Shown: piece by piece, positions 21,546 to 58,978 of the stretch
Numbering within the stretch: position 1 is the first letter of the stretch
Layout of the letters: each line of letters opens with the position of its first letter
Assembly: GCA_043228905.1 (NCBI GenBank)
Contig: JBHGNT010000013.1
Location: 20,522,001-20,586,000 of the forward strand
Length of the DNA stretch: 64,000 bases
Origin: Azolla caroliniana
Lineage: Eukaryota; Plantae; Polypodiophyta
Direction: 5' to 3'
Translations under genes and position numbers: made by a program
Notes under the pieces: generated by a model
Told to the model about the DNA's origin: nothing
Database searches by the model: none
Seen by the model: the letters and a program-made list of their open reading frames with translations, nothing else

Positions 21546-24500
21546 AACCTTGCCTTTGCTTGACTTAGAGATCTAACATGTTGCAGGAAAGCACATTTGT
21601 GTTGCGAATGTGTTGTTAAGAACTAGGCATAAGAATGAAGAAGAAATACTCATAGAAATGAAGATATGAGCTTAGAGTCAATATCCTCTCTTATACATGC
21701 TTCATGGTCAAAAGAGGAATACAAATTCTTCATCAAGGATGGCTTTTGGAAATATTCGAAGAGAAGGTTGGAGTATTATCCTTTGGAGGACAATGGGGAT
21801 CCCTAATGAAGGTTCTCGTATCTAAGTGGATTAAACACCTTTTCATTAACATTTTTCTTTGATTTATTTTTATCCTAATTAGTTCATTTCAATGGTTCCA
21901 TTTACATAAAGTGCAATGTTGTAGTTCCATGCGAATGAGATCTAACCTATGCAAAGAACGACTCCCCTTTCTTTTTTAATCATGAGAATTTGTTGCTACC
22001 ATGCAACAAACGGGTTAGCATGTTTCTTATTATGCAATTGCAGAATTCAGTCATTTTCCTTTTCTGATCATGCACCACTTCGTTTAGTTATAGTATTGCA
22101 GGAACATTACAAAATCTCTAGGTTTAGAATTCCAAATCATGTGTTTCTTTGTCAAGAGTGTGCTCCTACTGTATATAATATTTGGAATAAATATGACTAT
22201 TCTTATGATTATGCACTATCTAGTGTTCAGAAGGCTCTTGGTGAAATACAACAAATTTTCCATTTTAAGTCTAAACAAATATTCTATGCGTCTTTTACTA
22301 AAATAGGAAGACTTCGTAGGGGATTGAGATCCTTGCAACATCTACAAGAAAAAAGACCATATTCAAGTTATATAAGTTCCCGAGTGGCACAAATAGGGAA
22401 TCAGATATTGGAATTAGAAAAGATTTCTGTTGATTTTAATTATCATAGTATATCATCTACATGGGCAGAATCGGGAGATAAAGTCAATAAAATGTTCTTT
22501 GCAGTGCATAATCATCATAAGTCGACTGTTAGGATTTCTCGGTTAAAATGTCCTGATGGTTCTTATACCACTGATCCTAATCAGATGTTTCCAATAGCCT
22601 CTGATTATTATGAAGCTTTATTGAAAGCTAGATCCTTTTCTGGGGATGATTTAGTTAAAAGGGACATCATATGGTCAACGGTTCATAAGAGAGTGTCGGT
22701 ACAACTTTCAGAATGTCTTCTGCAACCTTTAAGTTCTCAAGAGATTCTTAAAGCAGTAAAAGCCCTTGCAAAGGATGTTTGTCCTGGATTGGATGGGATG
22801 GGATATACAATATTGGGATTTGATAGGTGATGGCCTTACCAAAACTTATCAACAGATCTTAAACTTAGGAAATATGCCACAAGAATGGAATGAGGGGTTA
22901 ATCTATATGATTCCTAAAACAAATGGACAATTAGAAGAACTTCGTCATTGGAGACCAATTACTTTGTTGAATGTTATTTACAAGATATTAGTAAAAATGA
23001 TAGCTAGAAGGTTACAACCTTATCTTCCAGAGCTAATTCATCATTCCCAAACCGGTTTTATGAAAGAGCGAAGTATTTTTGACAATATTATTCTTTTTTG
23101 GGAAATGGTGGTATTTGCTGAATTACATAAACAAGATCTAGCAGTGCTATTTCTTGATTTTGAAAAAGCTTTTGATAGAGTGGATTGGGATTTTATGGAG
23201 GGAACATTGCTTAAGATGGGTTTTCCCAACACATGGATACGAGGAGTGTCAACATTATATCGTCATGCACATAGTTCTCTTTTATTTGCAAGGGATATTG
23301 GTAGGCGGTTTTCTATTTCAAGATCTGTGCGACAGGGATGTCCACTTGCTCCCTTTCTGTTTTTATTAGTATCTGAAGCGTTTTTAGTACATCTAAATTC
23401 TCAAGATGTAAATATTAAAGGTTTAGCACTATCTGTGGAAAACGATGGCGTGGATAGTGAGTTTGCTGATGATACAGCTCTATATGTTGCAGCCTCACAA
23501 GTTAATTTGTTACATGTGCAAAAAGTTGTGGATGATTTCTCGCATGCATCCGGAGCATTGATAAATTGGGATAAATCATCAGGTTTTTGGATTGCTTCGA
23601 GTGATCCGCCAGTTAATATACCTACCTCAGGTTTTACATGGATACCTCATGGTCAATCCATTAGATATTTGGGTTGTAGAGTGGGTTTGGGTTTAAATGT
23701 AGAGGATATGATTGCACCCTTACTGTTAACATTAAGGAATAAGTTAATATATTGGAACAAGGAGAAGTTATCCTTAGCGAGACGTGTTTTGTAGGTAACT
23801 CAGTGCTTTTGTCTTCGATTTGGTATATAGCATCTACCTGGCTATTTTCTAGGTCAATAATGCTTAAAGTTCAACGCCTAGTACGCAATTTCATTTGGGG
23901 GAACACTATTGCAGACAATTCTATAGCAAAGGTAGCTTGGTCAGTTCTTATACAATCTAAACAGAAAGGAGGTCTAGGTTTGATTGATCCTTTTATGCAA
24001 AGTAAAGCCTTAATTGCTAAACATGTTGTTAGGAGTTTATTGCCAAGAGATGAGTTATGGAAAAAGCTATGGATTCATCACTTACATAAGGTCAAGCCCT
24101 CAGTAGGAGGGCAATGGCATGATAGTCTTAGGTGGTTTTTTAATTCACATTTTCCATTACCTAAGTGCAATGTTGGTTCATTATGTTTCTTTAGTGGAAT
24201 TTTTCGGGCATGGGAAACTCTTCAGCAATCACTTGTTTTCTTGCCTCCGAAAAATTATCATCAATTCATGTGTCAGCCTTTAATATGGAATCCTTTATTT
24301 ACTGACGAAGTTGCATGTGTTTTGGGTCTACGACCGAGGTTATCTTGGGCGACAATGGATAGTGGGCCAGCCCATACAGTTGCGGATTGGATAAAGTTTT
24401 TACAAACTTCAGCACACGACCAAAAGATTATGTTGTCTAATTTAAGAGGGGCAAGGATAATGTTCTCTCAATTGTCTATGGTGTATCAGGTCACACTACC

Positions 24501-25751
24501 AACTTTGCAGTTTGATCATTTTCAAAGTTGGTACGGTATGTTTTCGACATTTAATGTACTTATAGGAGCTCGTTTATATCATCGTAATGGCAATTTTTAT
24601 TGTTATGAAGTTTTGGACAATGGTAGATTGTTATTAGTGGCGGACTAGTCTCCAATTATGTCCAATGCAAAGCAGTTGCCAATTAGAGTAATTGCTAGAT
24701 TAGATAATAAAAAATTGATCGATCCTAGTCCGTTAATTGCTAAGTATGCATCTCAAATTTGGGTTTTACACTCTAGGCCACTTGTCGACCTGCAGTGGGA
24801 CCCATCAGATTATGGTTGGAAATTGTCCATGTCTGACACAGCGAATAAGATCCTTCCATTCTTCTCATATTCGGTGGTGTTCGGTAGAAACTTTATGTTG
24901 AATCAGACCGACTCAGTCCCAGCGGCAAACAAGTATTGGGAGGAAGGTAATGTCTCGTCGGCTCGTATGCGGATGTTTTGGAAACGGTTTTGGGTAACTA
25001 AATGTATGAATAAGATATTGCATTTTCGTTGGTTGATGATTCATTATGCATTGCCAGTAGGTGAACTATTGAGGGGTTCAGTGCGTGATCGGTCATGTGT
25101 TATGTGTGGGTTTGCATCTGAGTCATTGCATCATGTATTTTGGGAATGTTTGTTCGCTAAAAGGTTTTGGTTTCGAATTCTTACAAGGCTTTTAGGTCGT
25201 AAATATACCTCGGCTTTCTTCACGTGGGGTGCAGTCTTTTGGGGAATGTTGGATCAACAATCAGCCTTTTATCATTATCAGCATTCTTCTTTGTCTTTAC
25301 ATGTGAGAAGTTTTCAAGTATATGCTAGTTCAAGTTCCTTGCAAGGAATCAAGTTCTTCTCGCGGAGTTATGTTTGGCAAAGTGTTTCTTCTTTGGGTTT
25401 ATGGGTTCTTTGGAAAGCTAGGTGTTCCAAGCTATACAAGGATGAAAATACTCATGTTGTAGAACAACTTGAGTCTTTCTGGGACCTACTGGTACATACG
25501 GTAAAAGGTGATTATAACAGTTGTAAGGGATCAGGAGACACAACTAGTCGAAAAAGAAGGAGAATTAGAAGAGTTTGGTCATCTATTCCTATCATGTTGG
25601 ATGCAAAGGCTAATGTCAAGTGGAATTACGTACCACCTCGTTGGTTGTTCCCACCACCAGCACCGTCCTTAGAGCACACAACATAAATCAACATGGAAGA
25701 GGTGATTCTGGCACATAGCAAGAGTCTTTTCATAAAAGAAGCTTTTGGCGG

Positions 25752-26794: not shown

Positions 26795-27560
26795 GCGGAT
26801 TTCCGTGGACATTGGCAAGATGCTAATCGGCGAGATGGTTGATGGGGACTGAATGGAGAAATTTTTCTGTGATAAAGATGAGTGAAGATGGTGGGGGGGT
26901 CGAAGCCGACTAACATGACTGGATGAGGAAACTTTTACACTAATTTCCGTTTTTAATACAGGTTTTTCGTGGACATTGGCAAGATGCTAATCGGCAAGAT
27001 GGCTGATGTGGACTGATTGAAGAATTTTTTGTGATAAGCATGAGGGAAGATGGTGGGGGGGTCGAAGCCGACAATCAAGAGTGGGTGAGGAAATTTTTAG
27101 ACTAATCTTTTGTTGTTAATACAGGATTTTCGTGGACATTGGCAACACGCTAATCGCCGAGATGGCTGATGTGGACTGAATGAAGAAATTTTTTCTGTGA
27201 TAAGGATGAGTGAAGATGGTGGGGAGGTCGAAGTCGACTATCATGAGTGGGTGAGGAAGCTTTTACACTAATTTTTTGTTGTTAATACAGGATTTGCGGG
27301 GACATTGGCGAGGCAAGATGCTAATCGGCGAGATGGCTGATGTGGACTGAATGAAGAAATTTTTCTGTGATAAGGATGAGTGAAGATGGTGGGGGGGTCG
27401 AAGCCGACTATCAAGAGTGGGTGAGGAAACTTTTGGACTAATTTTTGGTTGTTAACACAGGATTTTCATGGACATTGGCATTAGCAAGATGTTAATCGGC
27501 GAGATGATTGATGTGGACTGAATGAAGAAATTCTTCTCTGATAAGGATGAGTGAAGATGA
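26795..27560. repeat. Tandem array, ~165-bp unit x ~4.6, within the LINE 3' UTR
   Basis: GGACATTGGC..AAGATGCTAATCGGCGAGATGG..GGTGGGGGGGTCGAAGCCGAC..ACTAAT..TAATACAGG recurs at about 26807, 26971, 27134, 27300 and 27470. Confidence 0.95.
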
Positions 27561-29100: not shown

Positions 29101-32005
29101 TTTGTGAGTTATGCACAAGGCCTTTCATGAATGGTAGGAAAGTAATATGGAAAAAGAGCATAGAAAGAAGAGACAATAAATCTATTAATCATACCACCTT
29201 TGGGCAATATCAAGTATGTCCACATATCCACTACATATCACCACAATGCAAATTAATATACTTTAGGAGCAAGAAACACGTGCGCATGCACTAAATATAC
29301 ATGCAAGCATGATAGAATTTCATCAAAACATTATATATACTCCTTGTCACTGCTAGGTGTCAAGAAAACTTGGTTCATTTCCTTCTTACATTTTATAATC
29401 GTTTGTTACAAGAGGACAATGTGATTGGTTGATGAACAATAACTATTGAAAGGTAGTTTCTATTCTCCTTTACTTTGTCTTCTATGAGCATATCCCCTCA
29501 TATTCCTCTCACTCTGAGACATTCCAAGAGTGAGAGAGACAACATGGGGTGCCCACATATCTATAGATATAAATGTAACAATAGAACATGATGATCCGAT
29601 ATAATTGCATCGGCTTTCTAAACTAAAAACAATAAAATATATATTGGTTTTGCGCTTGCTAAATTTTTTAAGACCGTGTAAATGTGTGCTCTCTTTAGTG
29701 GCAATCATCTACTCTTAATATTGTGATGACTAACATAAAGTTGTGCTATTATATGCACTCGTGTATGTATGGTTTATATGCACAATAAAAAAATGAAATC
29801 CATTATGGGTTTTGATTTAACTCGAGTATGTGAATGATTCCTTGCGATATTTTCAACATGCATTGCAAACGTAACAACTTTGTATCACCCAAAAATGGTA
29901 ATCTCCCAAATATTAATGTTACATGAGCAATTTTATAGCAAATTGTGCCACACTCAATTGAAAAGCCATGATTGAATATTAGCTTAAATTTGATGCTAAC
30001 AAATTTTACAAGCATGTATATAGTAATTTGTAACATTAGTTCCATGACTACTTAGAAAAAAGTTATTGAGAAGGCAAGAGCACGAGATGATCATTGTGAG
30101 CTCATAAATATTTCATATGCGTAGGACCATGCCTCATGCTCATCTTCATCGATCACTAAATGTTCTTCTATCTTATTCATGGGTAAATAACAAAATTAAG
30201 GCCTTTATGCTTTTATCAATGTGTCATGTTGTCCCCGAATATATTAATAATTTATCCACGATGGAAATCAGAATTAACTCTAAAAGGACGCAACAAATAA
30301 GCATGACTTAATATAATCCATTCTTTTTGTTCTCGATGTAAAGTACATGCCCTACAACGAGAGGTAAAAAAAATCCGTGCATTATTAGCGATGTGTAAAT
30401 CAAAAATGAAAAGACGCGAGGTCACGCTTTTCACAATGGGCTCCCCAGTTTTCATTCACAATACATGGAAACGTGAGGTGCACTTTTTTCCTACCCACTC
30501 CATGGCTTAACTCTTATGACATGTGTATCATCAGTATTATACTTTAAAAATTTGTAATTCGAAACTAAGATAAAGACAACATAGTCAAATTTATAAGTGG
30601 TGGGAATTGAAGCTTCACCTTCAGTTTACTAATATATAGGTTATGCCCCAGAACAAGACAAATTGGAGACCCATATCCAAAAGCACTACATTTTAAGGTA
30701 CAAATCTTAATTTCATTTGAAGGTTTAAACTTGCAAGAGCTACCTAGATTTCACTCTATAGAAATAAATGCTCATTTCATGGCACATGCTATCATTTTAA
30801 CGCAACAATGAGGATCTTATAATAGCACAAGCCTCCCTATAATGTGTCCCCCCAAATTTCAATAAAAGTGTGTATGTAGTAACAATATGTACATGTACTC
30901 AAAATGGATTACATAGATAAATAATGAGCCGGATAAAACGCACGTGACTAGAAATTGCAAAAACCATTTGTTTTTCTATTGATATACAATAACGAGATTT
31001 TAGTTGTTGTACAAAAGGATCCCAATAATGACATAGACTTGCTAGCACATTTCAACGGTAGAACGAAACTCTTTTCATGTGTTATAATTTCTACCTTTTC
31101 TTAATACTCGTGGGCCTTAACTATTTTGATGGTCCCATTACCTCCAAAGGTTTATTTTGGAAGGCTATTGCATGGTGTTACAATCATAACACTACCTATA
31201 TCATGGCTAAGTTAACTAAAATCTTGCTTGGCAGCCTTTTGTTACATCCTTATGTAGTCATCGAGATCAAATAACCATAATCTTTTAGAAAAGAAACCAA
31301 TGCCCAATAGACCACGTTTTTGTTTGTAGAGTAGTCTACCCAATACTACTTTACAAAGCTGTATGGATGCAAGAATGAGAAGGGAGGGAAAGTCATGCAT
31401 CTACATTCGTCTCTGACCAATGGGTTTTTGATACATTTGCAATAAGTTTTGGCACTCCACGTTCTCGATGATGTCACACCAAATCATATATGGATTTCTC
31501 TTGTAAGGGCTCAATCTAAAACTAACCTAACACAAGAAACTGTATTGTCCACATTCTCGAGCTCTCGATCATAGCGTACCACATCTTCTGGAACCAATGG
31601 ACGAGGAAGTTTGTCCAACTATGTGCTCAATTAGAATAGAACCCATCGTAAGGTGAGCAATGACATTGAGATGCTCAGGATAAGCCTGAGCCCGAAAGAC
31701 AAAAGAAGAAGAAGAAGAAGAAGCTAGGGTTTATGTGGCACATCATCGACATGGACGTAAACGAATGGCAAATGGTGGCATGCCAGAGGCAAGAGATGGC
31801 CTGGGGTGGGGGTCTTAAGCGTGGCGAGAGACAGATCGAGATAACACGAAGCAAATGTCTAAGATTGTGTCTCTAGGAGGAGGAGGAGGAGGAGGGTAAT
31901 GAGGGTGTGAACCCAAGCCCACCAGGCTAGATTGAGAGATTTGAGATTTTCTCTACACAAAGAAAGAAAGCCCTTTAAGGGTGGTGGTAAGTAGTAGCAA
32001 AAGAG

Positions 32006-32048
<43 letters not shown>

Positions 32049-32062
32049 GAACAGAGCTTTCC

Positions 32063-35000
32063 ATGGCACCTCCCTCTAAAAGACAAGCAAATCATCCTTC
32101 TTCCTCTTCTTCTCCTAATGCTGCTCTTCCTCTTCCCGGCCTTGCTATTGGCGTCATAGCAGGTATTGCTGCTGCCATAGCCTCTCACAACCTCCTCAGG
32201 AAGAAGGAGAAGAAGAAGAAAAAGAAGGAGGAGGAGGAGGAGGAGGAGGTCCCCTCTCCATCCCTCGTATTGGAAGAAACCCAAAACATAACTTGTAAAG
32301 AAGATGAAAAAGAAGAAGAAAAGGAGGATGGGTTCTCTGAGAAACCCTTGTTATCATCAGTTAATGAACTAGATTTCAGGCTTGCCTATGGTGAGGAGCT
32401 TCACCTATCTACTCAAGATAGTAGCTTTTCCTCCTCTGACATTGCACTAATTTCAAGTAATGAGGAGACATTGCATGAGGTAAGTAATGATCGTTTGAAA
32501 CCCTTTCCTTCTGAATTTTATGAAATAAAAACTGACAAACTGAGCCTGGAAGATAGAGAAAGGGAAAGAGAAAAAGAGCATTGGAATTATGCCCAAACAG
32601 ATGAAAAACATGTTTCACATATAGATTTGCATCCTTTGTTCACCACACAATCCATTGAAAGTAGACGCATGTCAATTAGTAATATAGAAACTGAGATTGA
32701 TCTAAAACATGATAATGTTGGGATCACAAGTGGTTTCTGTATTAAGGACTCAAATCCCCAACTGTTAATAGATGGGTCTAAAACCGGTCATATGGATATG
32801 AACAATCAGCACTCGAGCCTTGAATTGTTAATAGATGGGTCTAAAACTGGTCATATGAATGTCAGTGATGAAGAAAACATTCATGCAAGGAGGATCTATG
32901 CTGATATTTGTTTAAATCACAAGTATGACCAGCCTAACTACCAATTAAGAGCAGAAGATTCCAATGGCACTGGATCAATCACCAATATACCGAGTTTCAA
33001 TGACACTTGTTTAAGAAAGGATGTTGAGACCAATCATCAATTTTTTATTGGGAGTTTTAATAATGCTATTCAACAGATTAATTTCCAATCAACCCTGGAG
33101 AGATCTGACAATGGTAGTGAAAACCTTGATCTCCAACCAACAATGGAGGGATCTAGTAATGATAACAAAGAGATTAACGTTGAATTAGGATTGGATAATG
33201 GCAGTAGTATCCAACCAGCAATGCAGGAATCAGATAATGTGTCTGAAAACCATAATCTTCAACCAACAATGGAGGGATTTGTTAATCATATAGAAAAGCC
33301 TAATCTCCATATAACAATCGAGAAATTGGACGATGATAGCAAATATCCTAATCTCCAATCAATAAAAGAGAAATCAGATAATGATCGTGAAAATCCTACT
33401 CCCCAACCAACATTTGAGGAATCGGCCAATAGTATTGAACAGCTAACAATGGAGGAGTTGGATAATGTCAGTGAAAATCCTAATCTCCAACCAACAATAG
33501 AGAGATTTGACAATGGTGGTGAAAAGTCTAATCTCCAACCAACAATGGATAATGGTGTTGAAAAGTTTAATCTCCAGCCAGCAAGCAAGGAGCAATCAGA
33601 TAATGGTATTGAAAATCCTAAACTCCAAGCAATAATGGAGAGATCTGATAATGGTAGTCAAAATCCTAATCCCCAGCCACCAATGGATGGATCAGATAAT
33701 GTTATTGAGCAGCAGAATATCCAACCAAGAATGGAGGAATCAGAAAATGTTATTGAAAAACCTAATCCCCAACCAACACTGAAGAGATCTGATTATAGAA
33801 GTGAAAAGCCTAGTCTTGAACAAACAATAGATAATGGTATTGGAGAGCCTAATCTTCAACCAACAATCAAGGAATTGGATAATGGTAGTGAAAGTCTTAA
33901 TCTCGAACCAGAAATGGAGGAATCAGATAATGGAATGGAAAAGCTTAATCTCCCATCGTTGTTGGAGGATGTGAATGATCCATGTTTATTATGTGCCGAA
34001 GATATATATCCAGTTCTTCAATGTACAGTAGATGCTCCTTGTGTTGATAGAGGTATTTGCATGCAATCAATGACTAATGGATTGGATGAAGATCATTCAT
34101 CTATTGATAGAGAGCCTAATCTTCAATCCATGGCACAAGGATCTGATGAATCGTGGAGCATTGACCCTTGTGGCACTTTTTTAAGATGTGTGAATGGATG
34201 CTCGCCAACATTGCAAATCCTTTATGAGACATTTTCTAATCAACAACCAAATATTCGGTCAATAGAAGCCAAATTGGATGATAATTCTCTAGGTTTTGAT
34301 GAACAAGAGGTTAAACTTCAATCCATAATGGTGGTTAATGATGCAAATTTAAGTAATAATGGTGAACATGATCAGCCATTAATATTGGAGGGTTCAGAAT
34401 ATAGCTTATCAGATACCATTGTGAAGCTTGATGCTGGATCAGATATCAAGGGTAATGATGATAATTCTCTAGATGTTGATGGACAAGAGGTTAAGCATCA
34501 ATCCATAGTGGAGGTTAATGATGCAAATTTAAGTAATAATAGTGAACATGATCAGCCATTAATAATGGAGGGCTCAGAATTTACCTTATCAGGTACCATT
34601 GTGAAGCTTGATGCTGGATCAGATATCAAGGGTAATGATGATAATTCTCTAGGTGTTGATGGACAAGAGGTTAAGCTTCAATCCACAGTGGCGGTTAATG
34701 ATGTAAATTTAAGTAATAATAGTGAACATGATCAGCCATTAATATTGGAGGGTTCAGAATATACCTTATCAGATACCATTGTGAAGCTTGATGTTGGATC
34801 AGATATCAAGGGTAATGATGATAATTCTCTAGGTGTTGATGGACAAGAGGTTAAGCTTCAATCCACAGTGGCGGTTAATGATGCAAATTTAAGTAATAAT
34901 GGTGAACATGATCAGCCATTAATATTGGAGGGTTCAGAATATACCTTATCAGATACCATTGTGAAGCTTGATGTTGGATCAGATATCAAGGGTAATGATG

Positions 35001-38000
35001 ATAATTCTCTTGGTGTTGATGGACAAGAGGTTAAGCTTCAATGCATAGTGGAGGTTAATGATGCAAATTTAAGTAATAATGGTGAACATGATCAGCCATT
35101 AATAATGGAGGGTTCAGAATATAGCTTATCAGATACCATTGTGAAGCTTGATGTTGGATCAGATATCAAGGGTAATGATGATAATTCTCTAGGTGTTGAT
35201 GGACAAGAGATTAAGCTTCAATCCATAGTGGAGGTTAATGATGCAAATTTGAGTAATAATGGTGAACATGATCAGCCATTAATAATGGAGGGTTCAAAAT
35301 ATACCTTATTAGATACCATTGTGAAGCTTGATGTTGGATCAGATATCAATGGTAATGAGGATACTTCGTTACTTGTTGATAAAGAGATAAGTGTTAAGTC
35401 AACAATGGCAAAGTGTTTGGAAAATATTTCACAAGAACAAGAACTAAAACTAAATCTTCAATTTGAAGTGGAGGAATATGTTGGAGAAGTACATCCTGAA
35501 ACAACAAAGAAAGTCACAGATGACCCTTGTTTATTTGCTGATCATCATCCTAATTTCCGATTAGCAATGGAAATTTTTGATGATACTTGTAATTTAGAAG
35601 CTAATCCTTCATTTGGTGATGATCCTAATCTTCAATTGGCAATGGAATGTTTTCATGTTGTAGAGGCTAATCTTCCATTACTAGTGGATGGGCCTAATGG
35701 CACTTGCATAAGTATAAATGAAAGGAATGCTCTTCTATCAGCAACAAAGCATTCTGGTAATACTGGTTCATGTGTTAATGATGATGTTTCTATTAGCTTT
35801 GGCAGAGATTCTAATCTCCAAGCAAGATTGGAGGGTTCAGATGACACTTTTTCAATAAGCACTAGTGAACAGCTACCAGGCATCAAGGTGTATGAGAATA
35901 TCGTTTCAACTGATGAAAGAGAACAAAAGATGGAATCACTGGTTGAGGGATCTGATGATGTTGATTTAAGTGCTGAATCGGATGATAATGTTGAATATTC
36001 TAATCATAATCAATCAAAAGAAGTGTCTGATCAGTGTTGTTCTTTCCTTGATGAAGCTCATGATGATCTTCAATCAATCAATGAATGTTCTGAGGACACC
36101 GTTTTAAGCGAAGATATAGAACCAAATCTCAAATCAAATTGTGCTGGTAACAATTTCATACAGACCGATGAACGTGTTAATCTTGAATCAATAATGGAAC
36201 AGTCTGGTAGCATGTTTCCTAATGGTCTGCCTCATCTGCAACCAATAGTGAAAGAATTTGAAAATTTATGTTTCAGTATTGATGTTGAACATGATTTCCA
36301 AGAAACAATGGAAGGGTGGAATACACTGAATGTAGAGCCTGATATCCAACTGGTAGAAGAACATATTGATTATACTTGCTTATGCAAATGTGAAGAACCA
36401 TATGACCTATCAACAATGGAGGGAGTGTCAAATCTTTCAAAATGTTTGGACATTGATGGAGAGTCTATCCTTTTATCAGTATTAATGGAGTCCGACAGTG
36501 CTGGTGAGCCCAAAAGTGGGAGTGGTGAAACTTGTCTAACTAGTGATACAGAGCCAAATGTCCAATTAAAAATGGAGGAATCTGATGATGGTAATGATCA
36601 TCTCACAAGCTTTGGAGTCCCTTATATTCACCCAATGATGAAAGGGTCTGATCCAACTTTTGCAAATCAAAATGTTGATGGAGAAATACATTTCGAATCA
36701 ATAGTGGAACATGGTAACAACAATTTCTTAACTTCTAATGGATATTATAATTGCCAATTAATGGAAGGGTTGGATACTTGTGCTGAAAGAGCAGTTGAAA
36801 AGTGTGATGGAACTAATTCTGATATTCATGGGAAGTTGAATCTTCTACCAATGGGTGGTGAAACTTGTTTCAGCACCAACTTCAATTCAATGGTAGTGCT
36901 AGAGGAATCTGATTCTTTGAGCATTGATGGTGTGCCCAAAAACCAATCAATACTGGAGGGATATGATTATATGTGTTTAATTGGCGATGGAGATCATATT
37001 CTTCAACCAAAAATTGAGGTTTCCGATGACATCTATGGATGTTATCTGAGTGGTGATGATGAATGCAATCACAAAATAACAAGGGAGGGTTCAAATAAAC
37101 CTTGTTTAAGCAGTGAGGGAAACCCTGATCTCTATTTGATACAAACTTTTTCCGATTATCGAACATTGGGGTGGTCTTGTAATATTTCTGAGAACAGTCA
37201 GTCTGAAACTTGTTTAAGTGTAGATAGAGAAACTCCTCACCAATCAACAATGATCCCTGGAGATAATACTCGTTTAAGCTATAACGAATGTCCTTATATC
37301 CAATCAAAAATGGAAGAGCGTGGTCACACTTGTGCTGGTCAAGTGCATAATCTTCTGTCAACATTAGATGACAGTTTGGACATCGATGGAGAATCCAGTG
37401 TAGAGAGATCTGATAATGGTAATCTTCAACTACTAGCAAACTTTGATGAAATTTGTCAAACTAGTGATAGAGAGCTGAATGTCCAATCAGAAATAGATGA
37501 ATCTGCTGATGATAGTCCTGTAAGAAGTGGAATATCTAATGTCCATTCATTCATGAAGGATTCTCCCACCATTTTCTCAATTATTGGTGAAGAAACACAT
37601 TCCAAATCAATAGTTGAAGCTGGTAATGACACTCGGTTAACTTCTACTGGATATGATAAACTCCCAAAATTAGTGAAACACTTAGATGTTTGTAGCAATA
37701 ACGAAATTAATGTTCATACAATGGTAGAGGAGTTTGATATGGCTTATGTTACACCCATCGATGGTGTGTCCAAAAGCCAGTCTTTGCTGGAGACAAATGA
37801 TGATTGTTTAACTGCTAATGGAGATTCCACTGTTCAACCAATAGTTGAGTTTTCTGATGATATTGGTAATATTTATTTGAGTGATGGAGTGGTCAGTGAT
37901 GACAATGTTCCTTTAATCAGTAAACATGGACAGCTAATTATCAATGATGCTGACCCTAACCCTCAATCAGAAATGGAGACGGGGGGCTCTCCCTATACTC

Positions 38001-39346
38001 ACACAACCAACAATGATAAATATGATGATTTATTGATAATTGATAGATCTAATTATACTTGCTTGGTTTCTGATGATTTGCAATGCAGTAGAGAGGGATT
38101 TGAAATCTCTTGTTTAAGTACTGAAGGAGAGCAAGATCTACGATCAGCAACAGAGAGTGTTTCCAATACTAGTGTAAGTATCGTCAATGAAGAACTTCAC
38201 CTCCAATCAAGAATGAAGAACACTGATCAGCATTGTATTCTCAAGTCAACCATTGAAGTGGACAAGTCAGATGCAATGTGTTTAAGAGTTGAAAGAGAAC
38301 CTGATTTTCAATACAAGTTTAATCCTAGAAGCAGCCAACCAAGATCGATGTCTACTTATGAGATTGCAGCCAATGATGAAGATGCAAGCAATGATAAGGA
38401 TGAGATTCGAGGACATACTATCATTGCCCCTCTTAAAGACCATAATGTTGTCAAAGATACTATCATTGATCCTGTTAAAGAGCATGAAGATTGTTCTTTA
38501 ATGATGGATCATTCAGAAGAGCATATAATGAAATCAAGGGGTATAGATATCAATGATGTTAAAGAACCTGTGTGTAATGATGTGATTGAAAAGAGGAAAT
38601 TCGAGCTCGATGGCACAGAAAAGAAACCTAGGTAATTCAGCTCCTTTGTTTTATATCAATTAAATTGTTTCCGCAGAATCTTAATGTGATGTTTAAAGAT
38701 TGAAATCAACACTAATCTTAATGTGATGCCTTTACAGCCATACCAACTCATCTGAAGTGTTATCATGTGAACAAGGATTAACCAGTGTGAAGAAGGTAGT
38801 TCAACCAAGTCTTTATCAATATATTGTATTTCACTTAGTCTTAGTCCTGTTAAGACATACAGTTAATGTCCTCTTCTAGTTCAGTAAGTTTTTATCATGT
38901 TGTTCTTGCCTATTTTTGCTTTGATCCTTGTGAACCAAAATTTGGTCCATGGTTTTCATGAGTTTTTCAAATAACCCTAAATAATCTACTTGCTTTATAG
39001 ATGGTCTGCTAAATCCAAACGTCTTTTGTTCATTGATTAGGAGGATGGAGAACTGAGATCATCAGACGGAAATGGTGATATGAAGACCAACGAGGCATTG
39101 CCTTCAATACACACAAGCAAGAAAAGCAAGAGAAGAAGAAAAGTGAAAAAAGACAAGGTTGTCGTCCAGGGTACACATTGTCGCCAAGAAATACTCAGTG
39201 TTCACCAATCCAAAGATGGGTGGTTTCCAAACAAATTTGAGAAGCTCGCCCCACACTTTGTTCTCTGCTTTGTCTCCGCATGCTTATTTATTGCGGTAAT
39301 AAGTATTGTGCAACAATATTTACAACTATCTGAACCCCTTGGTTAA
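32063..39346 (+). CDS. Uncharacterised ~2310-aa acidic, repeat-rich protein with N- and C-terminal hydrophobic segments
   Basis: Uninterrupted 6.57-kb exon 32063-38631, then GT-AG-bounded exons 38738-38795 and 39041-39346 that join in frame (6933 nt in total). Upstream (CT)n resembles a 5' UTR. No RT, transposase or other recognised domain. Confidence 0.85.
33080..33960 (+). repeat. Coding degenerate repeats of ~19-20 aa (PNLQPTMEESDNGxE type)
   Basis: More than a dozen imperfect copies are visible in the translation, e.g. NPNLQPTIERFDNGGE and KPNPQPTLKRSDYRSE. Confidence 0.85.
34277..35356 (+). repeat. Coding tandem repeat, 180 bp (60 aa) x6
   Basis: GATGATAATTCTCT starts at 34277, 34457, 34637, 34817, 34997 and 35177; copies are near-identical with no indels. 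Confidence 0.97.
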
Positions 39347-43900: not shown

Positions 43901-46900
43901 ACTTATTCAAAGAGAAGAATATGGGAAGTTACTTAATAATTTCTTCAAACACAAGAAAAAGCACATGTATGTGCTAAATTATGGAGAAATCTAAAGGAGA
44001 AACGTGTTGAGAGTTATGGTGACTTGACTCTTCTTGACTTGTCTATACATTGTATGAATTTATATGGGCTATCTATTGCAAGAAAGATGATGTGTTATGG
44101 TTCTCTTCACATGTCTCCCTTCCTTACAATTGAAGATAATATGCTATCTATACCCAATGGCTGAAATGCTCAAATGGACAGGAAAGGAAGCACATGCAGG
44201 GATAAGTTATATGTTTAATCATGCATTGCAACATGCCATTGCCCTACAATTGGACTACAAATTGGATCAAACCTTTACATAAAAGTGGAGATGTAAATAA
44301 TCTAAACTATAGAACCATCATAGTTAGCTAACTAATGGCAAAACTATTAGGATGCATAATGGAATCAAAGAGAAGTGCATGGGCTGAAACAAAATAGTAA
44401 GAGAGCTTATGAACAAGTTGGCTTTCGAACACACCATAGCACCATCAATCACCTTGTCACCCTTTGAATATTAATGGAGGAAAGTCACTTGAGAGGTAAA
44501 GGTTTATATTGTTCACTTGAGAGGTAAAGGTTTATATTAATGGCAAAACTATTTGGATGCATAATGGAATCAAAGAGAAGTGCATGGGCTGAAACAAAAT
44601 AGTAAGAGAGCTTATGAACAAGTTGGCTTTCGAACACACCATAGCACCATCAATCACCTTGTCACCCTTCGAATATTAATGGAGGAAAGTCGCTTGAGAG
44701 ATAAAGGTTTATATTATTGATTTAAACTTTAAGAAAGCTTTTGATATGGTACCTCGTGAACATCTTTGGAAGCGAATGGAAAGGTGCCAAGTGAATATAT
44801 GCTTGAAATTTCCCCAATCTATGAGAAGGTATCTGTGTGTGTTTGGGTTATAGAATTTCAGATTTTTTCGATAACACTATTGGTGTTAAGCAAGGATGCC
44901 CATTCACACCAACTCTATTTGGTCCATGCATTGATTGTCAATGGAGCTTTGTTTAAACTACTATTCAAAATATAGACTTCTATCCTAACTTCATGTAAAG
45001 TCCAAAAGATGCTTTTTCTTGGAGAAATGAGGACGTCAATATTTGTTCAACTTGTCCCTCTCAACTTGAATACCGTGGGGTCAATTGGAAGAAATGGCTG
45101 CCAAGTTTGTATAGGAAGAAAGCATAGAAGAATGTCATCATGCTTTTGTTATATACTGATGGTATAGTACTTTTTGCAAATAATCTAGGAGATGCGCAAA
45201 AGCTTATGAAGGAATTGGAAGAATTTTGCATGTATACTAAATTAAGTGGCTATAGCTCTAAACCAAAAATTATACTTGTGAAGAGCTAAAGCTTCAAATA
45301 TCTTGGCCTTGAAGTTCCTTCAAATCATAGATGGAATGAGTGCACTACCTGTTGCCTAGACGCGGAAAAAGAGCATATTATGGATTTGAGAATACATGCA
45401 ATCATGGAAAAATGTAGTGTTTGGTCCTCCAGAAATACCTTTTCGACATTTTGGTGACATTGATGCTTCTCTATGGGGTGGAAGTATGGGATGGTAACAT
45501 CCCCAAATCTACTTGGAAAGAGTTTGAAAATATCCAAAAGGATTTCCTTATCAAATTTCTCCAAGTTAAGCACATTGACTTCCTAGAATTGCATGGGAAG
45601 CAAGCAAAAAGATCCAAAAGACGCATACAAAATTTGTGTTCCAGTTGGATGCAACAATGGAAAAATGGTTTGGAAGATGGGATGCAACATACTTGCTTCA
45701 TGATACATCACTAGATTCCTCTGTAAATGATGCCTTTTTGCAATGCTAATGGTTTGGAAGATGGGATGCACCACACTTGCTTCATGACATGTGATGGCTC
45801 ACGCTTCACACATTATACTACATATGTTGCACCTAACTACCAAAACCATATTCTTCGCCAAACGGGGAAACTATACACATCAATACATGTTAGAACCCAT
45901 CCCTTTGTCTGTGATCTAAATCATTGCTTCCATACGACTTAGGTCACACGCATTGCGATGTGAAACGAGGCATTGGGGCACAAGTGATGAGACTTGTCGA
46001 CTATGCACACTTTGCCTGAAACAAGTTCGAGAGTCTATGAGTATCACACTTTGATACAATGCTCTGCCTTCGATCATATTTGACTATGCTTTCCACATCT
46101 CTTCGACCAAATCCAATCCTTGCACGAATTTCTCTCGCAATCACAATGTACACTCTCGATTGCAAAATTTATTAATATAGTTCTTGAACAGTTGGAACTG
46201 CTACTTATTTTCCCATGTATTACGTAAAATCTAATATTTTTGGTGTCATAGGTCATATTTGACCTCCGAAAACGATAATAGAATCTACCTGTGTGTGTGT
46301 CTCAATAGTCAATGTTGACCTAAGAGAATACATTTTACACTTTACCCTTAACAAGTTTTGGGAGTCTGAGTATCATACTTTGATACAATGCTTTGGTTTT
46401 GATCACATCTGGCTATGCTTTCCACACATCTTCAACCAAACCCAATCTTGCACAAATTTCTCTTGTTTATAGTGTGCACTCTCGATTGCAACATTCATTA
46501 GTAAAATTCACAGATATTACGTGAAAATGTTATATGTTTGTTCTCATAGGTCATGCTTGACCTCCAGAAACGATAATAAAACCTGTCCATCTTTCAGGAG
46601 ATTAATGTTATGCATTTTACTCTAAGCCTAAAACTAATCTTTTCGTATGAGATTTTCGGTTTCATCATTAGCTAGCTAGGGTAAACGATTAAGCCACATA
46701 GTTGTATTTATTAACTTCTTAGTTAAAACAACTATTTAAGAGAGAAAGAAAGATATATTAATGTTTTTTAAGAGGCCAAAATGGCCTATAAGACCAAACA
46801 AGAGATTACATCTTAAGTGTTGTCTCGTCTTTGAGAACAACAGATAAGTGGTTGTGTGTCATTTACTTGGTTGGAGATGTAACTCCAAATGAGAGAAAAA

Positions 46901-49900
46901 TGTGTGCCCTATGCAACACATCTAATTTGTGTCTTTACTAGTAGTAGCAAGTGATGAGACAATACATTGAACAGAAATTTACTCTGTACTTCACTAATAG
47001 GTGTGCCAAATAGCAAGGATAATTTTAAAAAGTCAACTCAACTAATGGGTCTGCAAGCTTATTTAATGGACTCAATTAAGAAAGTATAAAAGATAATTTT
47101 TTAACTTCTCAAAGAGACCATAATAGCCTATATACTAGACAAATAGTTGTGCAAGTCTTATCTAATGGACTCAACTAAGAAAGTACAAAGATAATTTTTA
47201 AACTTCTCTAAAAGACCATAGTAGCCTATTAAACCTAACAAAGATTACAACTATTTATGTTAACTCATCAATGGCAATAACAAAAGAAAAATGTCTTTCT
47301 ACTTTAGCATCCTAATACTGAATTTCTTGAAACTAAATGGCTAGTTGCCTGTCTATAAGCACCCCAAAAAAGGGTGAGTTAAGATAAAGAAATATAGACC
47401 TTCACAATCTCAATCACTGAATTTCGAACAAGCGAATATGATAAAGCTGGAATGGTCTTTCTGAAAGCTCTAACATGATTATCACCTTATGAAGATCATA
47501 GAAAACACCACAAAAATCCAATATACATACCTCTAGCTTATCCTCCTTGGAATGATGATGTAACGGGAGTAAGCGTACCTCCTCTGTTAAACGAATACAT
47601 TCTCGTAGGTTTTCAGGAGAGACGAAATCCATCTCTATGTGAATGCAAGACTGGACAAGTAGCAACAAATTTCAATGTAGAAAGTTTTGTACAATCACTA
47701 GCAATTGATCAAACTTCTATATACCTATTAATTGATTCTAACAAAAATAATAATAATCATTGTCAAAGAAGTACAATGAAGGGACCTTCAAGTTTCTGAC
47801 TTGGTAAGCACATCCTGCTGGAATAAACACAGCTTCTCCAACATGCTGTTCAAACGTCCAAGGATCCACACCTATAAAATTGGAGGAAGCTTGAGATTCT
47901 GGAAGCACATTCATATTTGATTGTGAATAACTGAACACTTACCATACTTTTCTTTAAGTTTTCTCTTATGCTCTTTTGTAAGATAGACAGTCTGATCATG
48001 AATTGAATGAGTAACCTGCATTCCAGAAATTATAATCACGAAACACTATCAACAGATGATAGATACATGCAAAATCTTGGTACAGATTTTTACATGTTGC
48101 AAGCCCTGTTGTGACACATGCTGAAATTCACGGAAGTGCTTTTGCAAATAATCTTGTAGATTAGGTAAATCCTGCCGTCTGAAAATATCCCATAATGCCC
48201 CTCCATAGTAGTCACCCACGTTTCTATTAGATTGTTCAAATTCTGTCCCCTCACGATCTGTTGTCATCTCATGGGCTAGAGAGTTGGTGATATTCTTCTC
48301 TCGCAGTGTAAAGTCTTCAGTTACACCCACATTAGGAACTTCTGAATCAATCCTCAAGTTTGCATGTTCTCTCGATAGAGCTATCTGAATGATGCCAACA
48401 AGATGGAGAAACAAGAAATCTAAGTCCAAATATAAAAAGGATAAAGTAACCAAAAATGCAAAAGAAAATGAGACTGTTGGAACTAGGTAGCATAAAACTG
48501 ATGATCTAAATTTACAATTCTAAAAGTGCATCTCTAAACGACAATAAATGGCCTCTAAATGGGATTGAAATGAAATGCAAGTTATATTAACATCTTCAAA
48601 AGGCCAGATGACAGATGAACCAAAAGTTACATCCATGAAAAGAACAAATGTCATATTTATGTCCACAGTATGCCTTGAGGGCAAGTTGATACATCAAATC
48701 AAACAATTCACTTCATGGAGGTGCGCACAAGGCACATGAAAACTAATGCTATAAATGGTTTCTTTATAACTAAAATGCTGATATTTGATGACGATACAAT
48801 GCTAGACCTACAACATCATCTACCATTCAACAATGCTTAGGAATATGAAAGTCTTCTAGTAGTGCTCTCTCCTCACAGTAGACACCAATTTCCAGCTTGC
48901 TGATCAGAACTAACTTTCTGTTCTAAATTCACGGAGAAGTATTTTATATGTTATACAATTGCTTGACATTGACTAGAACTTTCACTTGCTCCTAGATTAA
49001 GAGCCTCACAACGTCATTCTTTGTATAATAAATCCTTCCGCCACACATCTGTTAGAAATATTGAGAATCGATTAGATAGACATATAGAGTTACAACCACA
49101 GAGATGGATATATGAAAACAAACTTTCTATTACTTATGAGAGTAGCTCACAATGGTAGTTCACCCATGCACTCACACCTTAGAGCTTAGATGGAATCTGG
49201 ACCAGCTCACACTACAAAATTAGTGGGGACCGATGATAGTCTCAGCCACCGTGTAAGAGAGTGGATTATATTCTCTGTTTGGTCTGAATGTAACATTAAA
49301 TGTGCAAGTCAGTTGATAGTAGTGGAGATATTCCTTTTCTGTCAATTGACTTGTCATTTAATATGGCCCAGCTCCCTAGATACAAGCTAGTGCTAGATAG
49401 TACTTATCTTAAAGTCAATAGCGCATACTTCAAGACTAAGTACATCGTAACTTGCCCACAAAACATTCTTCTAGTTGACTTGATTAACCAATCCTAAAAT
49501 ATTCTTCTAGCTGACTTGATTAGCCAATCCTATTAGCCTACTTCGCTCTTTCCTAAGTACATTGTGTCCAACTCATCTATGGTTTCCAAGATTGACACCT
49601 TATCAACCCATATGGTTGAGTTGCATAATGGCTACTCCTCATTTGGGGCACTATCACAAAATGTGCACTCTTAAGAGTACATATGGGGATAAATTGACAA
49701 CTTGGGGTTGATCATTGATTATATCTAACAACATCTACATGAAGTGCTGCCTATGAACTATACAGTTACCAAAGGTAAACAGCTTCTATGGTAGACAGAA
49801 GAAACAGATTTCTTCTCATTGAAAAATCATCCCCTGTTTTGAAATGGAATAATGTAGCATTACAAGTCATTCAAATCTCTTTTTACTCCACCCTTACTGT

Positions 49901-52900
49901 GACGGTTAATTTACTCTTCCATTTTGCAAACTGTAATCATAAAGAAGCAAATACAATAATCCATCCATTTAAAGACCATCAATCAAAAGGCACACATTCT
50001 CATTCACCAAAAACCTACTTTCGCTGTATCATATTCTGAATCAATTTCCCCACATATTTCTCTTTCCAAGTCACGCGTTTCATGTGGAGGAACAGGCCTA
50101 TCGTTGTCATGCCAGTCCTTATTGTCAGAAGAGTTTACTTCTCGGTACAGTTCAAGGATTTTATCAAGTTGTCGTTTCTGCCCCTCGGAAAGCTTAATAG
50201 CCGTTGCATGCACGAGCACATTCACCTTGATCACAAGCAAAAACAAGGGGATCTTTGGATCAGTCCTCACAAAGTGGCAATACAGAGCTTCACAAACTTC
50301 CCAAGACAACAACAACAAACTAACCACATCAGTTAGGTTACAATGCAACTTGGTTACTGAATCACCATGTCCAAGTTCGTCCCTTATACCATAAGCTATG
50401 GATGTCTTTGGACCGAGATCTGGTTTCAGTATGTAATCCGGAAGTTTTGATATCAAGTTCAAGCTTCCATATTTTGGATGTGTATATTCATGAAATGGAA
50501 GGCCAGTGATGAATTCAGCACCATGTCGTGCGAGCCTTTCCTGAAACAAAATTGATGGTGGCCAATCTTTCAATTGCAACATTTCAGGCCAACCGTCTTT
50601 ATGCATCCGGCCTTCTTGATAGCCTTTGAAGAATTGATGAATATTCATATCCACCTACAAAATGTCAACATGTCAAGAGCCAGCCTTTTTAACATTGTCT
50701 TAATGATGACCGGAATATCAATTGAGACAATGTTGTACAACATAAATACACCAACCTGAGACCAGTTTAGACAGTCAAGAGCTTGCACATTCTTTATTTC
50801 TCCTTCAATTTTATCATTTATACTCTCCTCGACTGCGTGGAAGATGTCTAAGGGATCCCAACTTAATCCCGGTGCGCCCTTCAGCACATTTCTGACAATA
50901 ACAGGCTCACCCTGAAACCAATGTTTTTGAAAATGTTGTAAACCTTCCTTTTTTGTCAGCTTGATTGTTGGGCAGTATACATAATTGTCCTTGCCTCCAA
51001 TTCTATTAGACGCATGACGAGTATATGCATTATGAGAATCAGCAGTGAAAGTCAGATCTGAAATAAGTCTAGCAGAGCAATCATAGCAAGGATCTTGAGC
51101 ATCCTGCAATAAAGGTGACTTTGAGTCTATCTTCATAATGCAATTAACATCATTCACCATTTTTGCTATCCAATCAGGCTTCAATATCCTTTTCAGAGCA
51201 AGTATACCAGACCCACATCCACCCCTTTCTGGATGTGGGCAAGGAATACTTTCATTTTCACTAGCAGACCAATCGGGTAATTTATACTGGCTTTCATTAT
51301 CCGGTGTATTGGAAAAAACTCTGACTCTTGTGTATGATGTTTTCTTAGCAGAACTTGCTTTTTCTCCTCCAGGTTGCTGTCCACACCGTAGCTCATAACA
51401 GCATGTAATGCACAAGTTATAGCTACAGCTTGAACAGCTTCTAAAGAGATCAATAACAGATGAATTGCAGTTATCACTGGAAAAGAAGCAAAAAACATAT
51501 CAAATATAATGACAAAATGATATCCACCATTGTTCAACCCACAAGTAGTCAACTCAACAGATTGAATGCAATGTTTCACTAAGCCACAAACAGATATAGC
51601 ATTACATTGGATTTATCGAGCTTGCTTTTTCAAAGAAACCCACACACCAGAATGATCACAAGGTAAGCACCTCCTTCTAGAAATTAACTAGTGAAATGAA
51701 TAACTTCAGCTTATATTTATGATCATTAGGGATGTTGATCAAGCCACCGAGAAGCTTGGATGTTGGGCAAAGCTTAGTTGTAACTAGAATTCTCCTCAAG
51801 GGAGAAACCAACCACGGAGGAGGCAGGATTCATCTAACAGTTCTATTGGGGAAATTTCCCCTTATCCACGTGAATAACCCATGAGAGCACACGTCTATAT
51901 TCATGAGGCACTCACATTTCCTTGATTAAATATCCATAGAATAATAGAACATATTATAGCACAAAAGCATATTGATTTCTATGCCTCTGAAGATCAAGCT
52001 AGAAATAATAAAGGTAAGTTTTCACCGGAAAAGGAAATCATGAAAAACAACTGGCTAAGTCCAGTTCAATTCTATGAACTTCCCTTCAATAAGTATACCC
52101 AAACTCAATGATCGAGAACATATGTATGTTATGCCTTGTAACAGATACGATACCACCTTCTTTACGGCTTTTTCCTTCTTTCTAAAGTGTCTTTGTTCGC
52201 AGTGTGGCGTATTTTCTGTGTCAGCATATTCTGAGGGAGGATCCTAAGCTTCCGCATATTTCTAACCCCAAATGAGTAAAGAAAGAAAAGGTTGCTTGGG
52301 GGTTCCTAGAACAAATCCGGTGGGGACAGGGAATGTAGCTCAGAGGATTAGAGCACGTGGCTACGAACCACGGTGTCGGGGGTTCAAATCCCTCCTCACC
52401 CACAATAATAATAATAGGGAGAACGAGAAGTCACCTTTCGCTTCGTGATGATTCTATCGAGAATGATCAAAACCTTGCTCTCAAGGCAATTATTTCAAAG
52501 ACTTCGAGCGAGTGTTAAGCTGCTTGCTATTTCGCCATGACATTTCTTAGAAGCTCCGAGCATAGGTGTGCCGATGGCATTCAACATGGCCTCTATTTGT
52601 TTGATTCCTTGAACCTCTACTTGTTGGGTTAGTCTATTGGAAGGGGTTAGGACATGTAGATTAATCGATTTCTCTCTTCCCAATCGCTCAAAAAGTCAGT
52701 CAAAGCTTACTTTGAATAGGGAGAGTGGCCGAGTGGTAAAAAGCAACAGACTGTAAATCTGTTGAAGATTTTCTATGCAGGTTCAAATCCTGCCTCTCCC
52801 AACCAATAGGTTAGGTCTGAAAAAAAATTATGCTTTCACTGTTGTTAATGGATAGCGAACGTATATCTGATGCTTTGCCTAGACTAGAGAACTCCGCTCG

Positions 52901-55491: not shown

Positions 55492-55612
55492 GGCTTCCTA
55501 TTTTTCCTTCAGCGGGTGGTTTGTTTGCTGATCTGTTAGATGTCGGAAACGTATGGAACTCTTCTTTCTGTCTCTCTCAGTTCATGTGAGCAAGTAAAAA
55601 AAAAAAAAAACG

Positions 55613-58270: not shown

Positions 58271-58978
<708 letters not shown>

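What the first reader, a model, noticed from the sequence alone, without database searches (positions are those of the whole stretch)
32063..39346. Giant orphan acidic protein with a membrane anchor at each end: candidate long tether or spacer
Seen: the spliced ORF is ~2310 aa. It has one hydrophobic stretch near the N-terminus (LPGLAIGVIAGIAAAIA, then RKKEKKKKKK and a poly-E run) and one at the C-terminus (HFVLCFVSACLFIAVISIV, preceded by KKSKRRRKVKK, with a ~12-aa tail). Between them are more than 2200 D/E/N/S-rich residues with no domain I recognise. The second anchor appears only after splicing in two small exons, so the ORF track hides it. Inference: a signal-anchor plus tail-anchor layout around a long disordered linker could bridge two membranes or organelles, or set their spacing. 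It may be a hugely expanded member of a small two-TM plant family. A 6.5-kb stop-free exon in TE-decayed surroundings implies selection.
Basis: partly seen in the sequence, partly recalled or inferred. Interest (0 to 1): 0.8.

Follow-up and report, generated by a model that had tools for sequence, protein, structure and literature searches.

The report
Giant double-anchored acidic repeat protein
This spliced plant gene with no detectable distant relatives encodes a 2,310-residue protein made mostly of one short acidic motif repeated and decayed, with a predicted membrane anchor at each end, so it likely acts as a long flexible leash between a chloroplast or mitochondrion and the ER.

Summary
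The gene is real. Exons 32063-38631, 38738-38795 and 39041-39346 give a 2,310-aa ORF (pI 4.3) with only two hydrophobic peaks, aa 22-40 and 2281-2299. Both introns are spliced out in contigs of 4 of 4 runs laid, from four studies. Close relatives keep the frame (7 of 7 coding indels in frame, no stops), but amino acids drift neutrally (dN/dS about 1), as expected of a spacer. No distant homologue was found. The N-anchor fits the plastid/mitochondrial signal-anchor rule; the C-anchor has a non-basic tail and fails the KASH motif. Best reading (0.4): a cytosolic leash between an endosymbiotic organelle and the ER. Nothing shows localisation; both anchors may enter one membrane; no RNA contig covered the N-anchor. 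The 'small two-TM family' idea has no support.

The parts
32014..32043 (+). (CT)n tract 19 nt before the ATG, likely 5' leader
   Evidence: the kinase and cold-shock genes of this window also have (CT)n 6-11 nt before their ATG; 3 of 5 (CT)8+ tracts precede a long ORF
32063..38631 (+). Exon 1 (coding), 6,569 nt; next Met only at aa 203
   Evidence: RNA contigs cover it in pieces from 32258 on
32126..32182 (+). N-terminal hydrophobic helix aa 22-40 with a GxxxGxxxGxxxA glycine zipper; predicted signal anchor
   Evidence: KD 2.11; Wimley-White mean 0.03-0.10, scale recalled; transcription not shown
32198..32227 (+). Basic cluster aa 46-55 (9 K/R), followed by poly-E
32750..38242 (+). Decayed tandem repeat region aa ~230-2060; unit of 16-22 aa, consensus roughly P-N-L-Q-[SP]-x-M-E-x-S-D-N
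33059..33970 (+). 48-nt (16-aa) array, aa ~333-636
   Evidence: TRF period 48; autocorrelation z 15 at lag 16
34277..35367 (+). Six young 180-nt (60-aa) copies, 95% alike; contig of run X3 skips 900 nt (five copies)
36269..38236 (+). Old ~310-aa internal duplication (aa ~1403-1757 against ~1717-2058, 31-36% identity)
38632..38737 (+). Intron 1, GT..AG; if retained, a stop at 38633-38635 removes the C-anchor
38738..38795 (+). Exon 2, 58 nt
38796..39040 (+). Intron 2, GT..AG
39041..39346 (+). Exon 3 coding part to the stop
39119..39151 (+). Basic cluster aa 2236-2246, NLS-like, unchanged in L001
39254..39310 (+). C-terminal hydrophobic helix aa 2281-2299; predicted tail anchor
   Evidence: KD 2.64; three conservative changes in L001
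39311..39346 (+). 11-aa tail without basic residues, not ending in the KASH motif

Best explanation
The gene encodes a 2,310-aa protein whose middle is a decayed acidic repeat and whose two ends are predicted membrane anchors, and it likely works as a long, flexible cytosolic leash with its N-anchor in a chloroplast or mitochondrial outer membrane and its tail anchor in the ER or nuclear envelope. Shown: gene structure, splicing, repeat architecture, frame kept while residues drift. Inferred: both anchors insert; the positive-inside rule puts the linker in the cytosol at both ends; the N-anchor (weak hydrophobicity plus 9 K/R) sorts to an endosymbiotic organelle; the tail anchor (non-basic tail) sorts to the ER; the ~2,240-aa chain is disordered and spans roughly 35-50 nm as a coil (up to ~850 nm stretched), holding the organelles near while its negative charge keeps them from touching; its length changes by gain and loss of coding repeats.
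For: Only two hydrophobic peaks, one per end. Net charge +7 just after anchor 1 and +10 in the 45 aa before anchor 2, tail -1. Anchor 1 meets both parts of the plastid/mitochondrial signal-anchor rule, Wimley-White under 0.4 and three or more basic residues after it (rule: PMC4010795 section 5; values). Anchor 2 lacks the basic tail that mitochondrial tail anchors need (section 6). 21 of 24 blocks of 100 aa fall on the disordered side of the charge-hydropathy line; AlphaFold on an alignment of 14 diverged repeat segments gives pLDDT 48, pTM 0.13, no secondary structure. Frame selected but not residues: 7 of 7 coding indels in frame, no stop among 93 substitutions in L001/L002 (P 0.013) or 79 in RNA contigs (P 0.024; the two sets overlap in part), dN/dS 0.98-1.79 in three of four segments and about 1.1 in RNA tables. 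N-glycosylation sequons not enriched, 28 against 27.6 +/- 4.6. The same layout, built by hand, links mitochondria to ER (PMC2064383 passages).
Against: No localisation data of any kind. Anchor 1 is only ~15 residues, Ala/Gly-rich and marginal on the Hessa scale (-0.4 for 15 aa, +1.3 for 17; scale recalled), and no RNA contig covered it; four CAG/TAG sites at 32159-32199 could be acceptors for another first exon. Chloroplast tail anchors show no charge trend and anchor 2 scores 0.26-0.30 over 17-19 aa, so both ends could go to one organelle. No purifying selection was detected even in exon 3 (16 non-synonymous, 4 synonymous). The predicted span exceeds the 10-25 nm of ER-mitochondria tethers. 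No partner-binding motif found (FFAT-like and AIM-like patterns, recalled: 0 hits).
Confidence: 0.4

Rival explanations
1. Both anchors enter the same kind of membrane (for example the plastid outer envelope or the ER). The protein forms a giant acidic loop or brush that spaces membranes apart, or links two organelles of the same type.
For: Both helices score under 0.4 over 17-19 aa on the recalled Wimley-White scale; chloroplast tail anchors have no fixed tail charge; the glycine zipper in anchor 1 could cluster copies; uniform net charge of -0.09 to -0.16 per residue suits a repulsive brush.
Against: The two ends differ in hydrophobicity and in flanking charge; chloroplast tail anchors usually have basic residues on both sides, which the tail lacks.
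Confidence: 0.24
2. Only the tail anchor inserts. The protein is an ER or nuclear-envelope tail-anchored protein with a long disordered arm; the basic clusters are nuclear localisation or lipid-binding signals and the N-terminal helix binds a partner or is not in the mature transcript.
For: Weak anchor 1; no RNA cover of aa 1-65; two NLS-like basic clusters; Ist2 tethers by an ER anchor, a disordered linker and a lysine-rich end (PMC7387695 passages).
Against: The ATG has a (CT)n leader and context like the two neighbouring genes; anchor 1 is followed by a textbook basic flank; the KASH motif is absent.
Confidence: 0.18
3. It is a secreted, mucin-like type I membrane protein: cleaved signal peptide, giant extracellular or lumenal repeat domain (possibly a beta-solenoid rod), one C-terminal TM.
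For: An A-x-A site closes the first helix (aa 38-40); 2.4% Cys; AlphaFold folds the six 60-aa copies into regular beta structure, pLDDT 62.6, pTM 0.56.
Against: Charges at both helices point the other way and the tail has no basic stop-transfer residues; sequons not enriched. AlphaFold2 is known to give unrealistic solenoids for near-perfect repeats (PMC11795689 abstract); the model has no Foldseek match at E<=0.001, best TM-scores ~0.1; diverged repeats do not fold.
Confidence: 0.1
4. It is a transcribed, nearly neutral ORF grown from a coding minisatellite, with little or no function.
For: dN/dS about 1 throughout; no distant homologue; coding divergence (5.7-8% non-synonymous outside exon 2) equals intron and UTR divergence (6.0-7.6%).
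Against: At 7% divergence a neutral 6.6-kb frame would gain ~21 stops; repeat units have diverged to ~65% DNA identity with no stop; all 7 coding indels are in frame while 2 of 4 intron indels and the UTR indel are not; splicing is kept in four studies.
Confidence: 0.08

Closest known systems
Engineered OMM-ER linker mAKAP1(34-63)-mRFP-yUBC6 (PMC2064383, passages)
   Same: One chain, organelle signal anchor at the N-terminus, tail anchor at the C-terminus, cytosolic middle.
   Different: Synthetic and under 5 nm; this one is natural, ~2,240 aa between anchors, and its targeting is only predicted.
Yeast Ist2 ER-PM tether (PMC7387695, PMC12618243, passages)
   Same: Long disordered linker, longer than the gap, modelled as an entropic spring.
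   Different: Ist2 has a TMEM16 scramblase domain and ends in a lysine-rich lipid-binding patch and binds Osh6; here no folded domain, a hydrophobic helix at each end, no partner known.
Trypanosoma p197 of the tripartite attachment complex (PMC9546609, abstract and outline)
   Same: Giant lineage-restricted protein whose repeat middle sets a distance between two structures.
   Different: p197 is alpha-helical and binds proteins at both ends; no sequence similarity was tested or is implied.
Plastid/mitochondrial signal-anchored proteins OEP7, Toc64, OM64 (PMC4010795 sections 5-6)
   Same: Moderately hydrophobic N-terminal helix followed by a basic cluster.
   Different: Single anchor; no giant repeat linker or second helix.
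Plant KASH proteins WIP/SINE (PMC4050730, passages)
   Same: C-terminal TM followed by a 9-40-aa tail.
   Different: The tail does not end in [DTVAMPLIFY][VAPIL]PT.
Toc159 acidic A-domain (search listing only; properties recalled)
   Same: Long acidic, disordered region at the plastid surface.
   Different: No GTPase or M-domain here.
Tetherin/BST2 (recalled, not looked up)
   Same: Membrane anchor at each end bridging two bilayers.
   Different: Extracellular coiled coil of ~100 aa with a GPI anchor.

Membership tests
Plant KASH protein | TM followed by a 9-40-aa C-terminal tail | tested here: met
   hydropathy peak then 11 aa; definition
Plant KASH protein | Last four residues [DTVAMPLIFY][VAPIL]PT | tested here: not met
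   ends EPLG, QPLG in L001
Plastid/mitochondrial signal-anchored protein | N-terminal TM with Wimley-White value under 0.4 | tested here: met
   0.03-0.10 for windows of 11-21 aa; scale recalled, the original windowing not reproduced
Plastid/mitochondrial signal-anchored protein | Three or more basic residues just after the TM | tested here: met
   9 K/R in aa 46-55
Plastid/mitochondrial signal-anchored protein | Insertion in the outer membrane in vivo | not testable with these tools
   needs GFP fusion and fractionation
Mitochondrial tail-anchored protein | Basic residues in the tail after the TM | tested here: not met
   tail net -1, no K/R; rule
Ist2/TMEM16 tether | Anoctamin multi-pass domain | tested here: not met
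   no Pfam match, only two hydrophobic peaks
Ist2/TMEM16 tether | Long intrinsically disordered linker | tested here: inconclusive
   predicted by charge-hydropathy; one search gives a likely artefactual beta model for the young repeats
Toc159 family | GTPase (AIG1-type) domain | tested here: not met
   absent in Pfam scan
Transposable-element or viral ORF | TE/viral domain, repeated copies or viral relatives | tested here: not met
   no TE Pfam domain, no second copy in the window, no viral contig match; the rest of the genome was not available
Mucin-like type I membrane protein | Lumenal ectodomain with enriched glycosylation sites and basic residues after the last TM | tested here: not met
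   N-terminal 120 aa: one 95%-identical 71-aa fragment and one unrelated repeat protein among 1.84 billion; exon 3: none among 45 candidates of 178-2000 aa; searches are weak for a sequence that drifts neutrally

The most novel reading that the evidence does not exclude
A natural single-chain inter-organelle leash: an integral anchor in a plastid or mitochondrial outer membrane at one end, an ER tail anchor at the other, and between them a purely entropic acidic chain whose length, and so the organelle spacing, evolves by expansion and loss of a coding minisatellite.
Probability: 0.3. Interest if true: 0.75.

Novelty: new variant of a known kind. Interest (0 to 1): 0.48.

Why it matters
Plant organelle tethers are poorly catalogued and are mostly found by homology to conserved families; this protein would be invisible to such searches because only its layout, charge and frame seem to be selected. 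If the two ends sort to different membranes it would be a natural version of the engineered mitochondria-ER linker with a built-in length dial, and a direct test of whether linker length sets organelle distance. My paper searches for such a natural protein found none, but the library lacks most subscription journals. It also suggests a simple screen of plant genomes: two terminal helices around a long acidic repeat.

Tried and rejected
Homology: Pfam gave three hits on exon 1 with 0 passing stretches (3D, Mcp5_PH, MCP_V20_C), sums over the 60-aa repeats, rejected; NCBIfam one such hit below its cut-off. Word-based protein searches: 0 of 45 (exon 3, 178-2000 aa), 0 of 5,116 (exon 1, 1204-3833 aa), 0 of 7,993 scored (repeat alignment, 175-2000 aa); exon 3 was not searched against proteins over 2,000 aa. 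ESM Atlas: no usable hit for either end. PDB sequences: 0. Viral contigs: no pattern match; prokaryote genomes: 11 pattern matches, 0 confirmed. P0002 is an unrelated repeat protein. No whole genome is held, so copy number and paralogues are untested. No run was on record as RNA; 7 of 15 listed runs were laid; X7 and X13 gave almost no orthologous cover of the 5' end. The missing cover of 32063-32257 is not counted as evidence of absence. Rows dropped: the 3- and 5-nt gaps at 32114/32118 lie in one 60-letter contig on a TC-rich repeat (they would shift the frame if real) and the 32309 difference comes from short contigs on the GAA repeat. The 71-nt unchanged run over the C-terminal basic cluster in L001 is not significant (expected longest run ~64). 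The beta model of the young repeats was rejected as the known AlphaFold2 bias. A self-BLAST printed nothing and was redone. Complex prediction was not used: no partner is known. Earlier-finding look-ups by sequence, place and words gave nothing on this gene.
Full report
Observation. The longest ORF of the window is 31991-38635. From the ATG at 32063, joining exons 32063-38631, 38738-38795 and 39041-39346 over two GT..AG introns gives 2,310 aa, 256 kDa, pI 4.3, with 442 D/E against 173 K/R. Only two 19-residue windows are strongly hydrophobic, aa 2281-2299 (KD 2.64) and aa 22-40 (2.11); the third is 1.24. The host is a land plant (plant-type WRC domain, proline-rich receptor-like kinase, copia and LINE remnants); notes by other agents on this genome call it likely a fern, which I did not test.

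Expression and splicing. Fifteen runs were listed, none on record as RNA. In the four laid over the gene (X1, X14, X2, X3; four studies) contigs cover exons, end near 39570 and skip the introns: intron 1 as a 106-nt GT..AG joint in X2 and an equivalent joint in X1 and X14, intron 2 as a 245-nt GT..AG joint in X1 and X14 and matching loose ends in X2, and both with the small exon between in X1, X14 and X3. The DNA contig L001 keeps both introns with the same ends. The second anchor is therefore real at transcript level. The first is less secure: laying X1, X4, X7 and X13 on the 5' end gave orthologous cover only from 32258 (aa 66) onward. The tool skips the repeats either side of the anchor, so the hole is no evidence of absence. 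For the ATG: there is no other Met before aa 203, and a (CT)n tract lies 19 nt before it, as before the kinase and cold-shock genes of this window. Possible acceptor sites at 32159-32199 leave another first exon open.

The linker is a decayed repeat. TRF finds a 48-nt array and six 180-nt copies. A matrix built on 17 units of the 48-nt array finds 18 further units outside it against a mean of 0.49 (maximum 3) in 300 shuffles; iteration reaches 62 units between aa 230 and 2060, and an HMM built on 50 of them finds 54 above 0 bits against 0.2 per shuffle (partly circular). The 60-aa copies each hold two detected units, and aa ~1403-1757 is duplicated in ~1717-2058 at 31-36% identity. One contig of X3 skips five of the six 180-nt copies, either a real length difference or an assembly collapse.

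Selection. Among close relatives 7 of 7 coding indels are multiples of three, as is the 15-nt deletion in L001, whereas 2 of 4 intron indels and the 3' UTR indel are not. No stop appears among 93 substitutions in L001/L002 (expected 4.3, P 0.013) or 79 from the RNA tables (P 0.024; these are 40 of 423 rows and 39 of 46, and overlap L002 in part). A neutral frame of this length would gain about 21 stops at 7% divergence. Amino acids, however, drift: dN/dS 1.79, 0.43, 1.13 and 0.98 for the end of exon 1, exon 2, exon 3 and L002; about 1.1 in the RNA tables; introns and UTR differ by 6.0-7.6%. L001 and L002 are low-coverage contigs whose 5' parts are unrelated to the window, so they may be chimeric or broken copies; the RNA-derived figure does not depend on them. 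Frame kept and residues free is what a spacer should show, and it explains why no distant homologue is seen.

Homologues. None beyond very close kin: Pfam and NCBIfam give only repeat-summed noise; three word-based searches gave 0 of 45, 0 of 5,116 and 0 of 7,993; phmmer of the first 120 aa over 1.84 billion representatives gave one 95%-identical 71-aa fragment and one unrelated repeat protein; Atlas, PDB, viral and prokaryote collections were blank. It is not a TE ORF by domain and has no second copy in the window.

Structure. 21 of 24 blocks are disordered by charge-hydropathy. AlphaFold2 on 14 aligned diverged segments gave pLDDT 48, pTM 0.13 and no secondary structure (shallow alignment). 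The six young copies, folded as a single sequence, gave regular beta structure at pLDDT 62.6 without any Foldseek match at E<=0.001; AlphaFold2 is reported to do this for meaningless perfect repeats (PMC11795689, abstract and outline), so I discount it without excluding a conditional solenoid.

Mechanism. Anchor 1 scores 0.03-0.10 on the Wimley-White scale and is followed by 9 K/R (scales recalled); over 89% of plastid and mitochondrial signal anchors score under 0.4 and need three or more basic residues there (PMC4010795 section 5). Anchor 2 is more hydrophobic, has +10 in the 45 aa before it and a tail with no basic residue, unlike mitochondrial tail anchors; chloroplast tail anchors show no charge trend (section 6), so the plastid is not excluded. 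By the positive-inside rule (established knowledge) both ends leave the linker in the cytosol, and sequons are not enriched. That is the layout of the engineered mAKAP1-mRFP-UBC6 linker, which pulls ER and mitochondria together (PMC2064383 passages), with a linker like that of Ist2 (PMC7387695 and PMC12618243 passages) and a repeat-set length like p197 (PMC9546609 abstract and outline). Recalled scaling laws give 35-48 nm end to end and ~850 nm contour. I put 0.4 on a two-organelle leash, 0.24 on both anchors in one membrane type, 0.18 on a single tail anchor, 0.10 on a secreted mucin-like protein and 0.08 on a near-neutral ORF.

Membership and novelty. It fails KASH (PMC4050730 passages), Ist2/TMEM16, Toc159 and mitochondrial tail-anchor tests, and meets the sequence rule for organelle signal anchors. 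It works, if the inference holds, like a disordered-linker tether, but belongs to no family I could find. Paper searches for a natural two-anchor tether returned none; PMC7118198 (passages) added nothing. No supplements were read. Verdict: a real, expressed, lineage-restricted gene with an unusual layout and an untested function; new variant of a known kind; interest 0.48.

Noticed in passing
window 9997-~11335 +: Proline-rich extensin-like receptor kinase gene (Pro-rich N-terminus, TM, kinase domain by Pfam; PERK name recalled).
   Followed up: partly
window ~48000-55500 -: Multi-exon gene with a WRC domain and pieces that read like a KDM3-type JmjC demethylase (recalled; no Pfam or PDB hit for the pieces). 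At ~50200 the usual H-x-D iron-binding motif appears to read H-x-N, so it may be catalytically inactive.
   Followed up: partly
window 58274-58810 -: Cold-shock domain protein with glycine-rich linker and two CCHC knuckles; exact sequence not in the collection.
   Followed up: partly
window 16594-~19000 + and 21946-25686 +: Frameshifted copia element and frameshifted LINE (RT, zf-RVT).
   Followed up: no
window 26797-27559: 171-bp tandem repeat, 4.6 copies, 86% alike, G-rich, just after the LINE.
   Followed up: no
window 8550-9104 +: 184-aa open frame with protein-like composition and no Pfam or NCBIfam hit.
   Followed up: partly
P0001: A 71-aa ENA protein matches aa 1-59 at 95% and then ends after an unrelated 12 residues; slippage at the K/E microsatellite, a chimera or a short allele.
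   Followed up: no
L001 1-530 and L002 1-~940: Parts of these contigs are unrelated to the window and join the gene in mid-exon; chimeric assembly or rearranged copies.
   Followed up: partly
window 44333-44715 and 56775-57033: 205-bp duplication (97%) and 86-bp triple repeat (93%).
   Followed up: no
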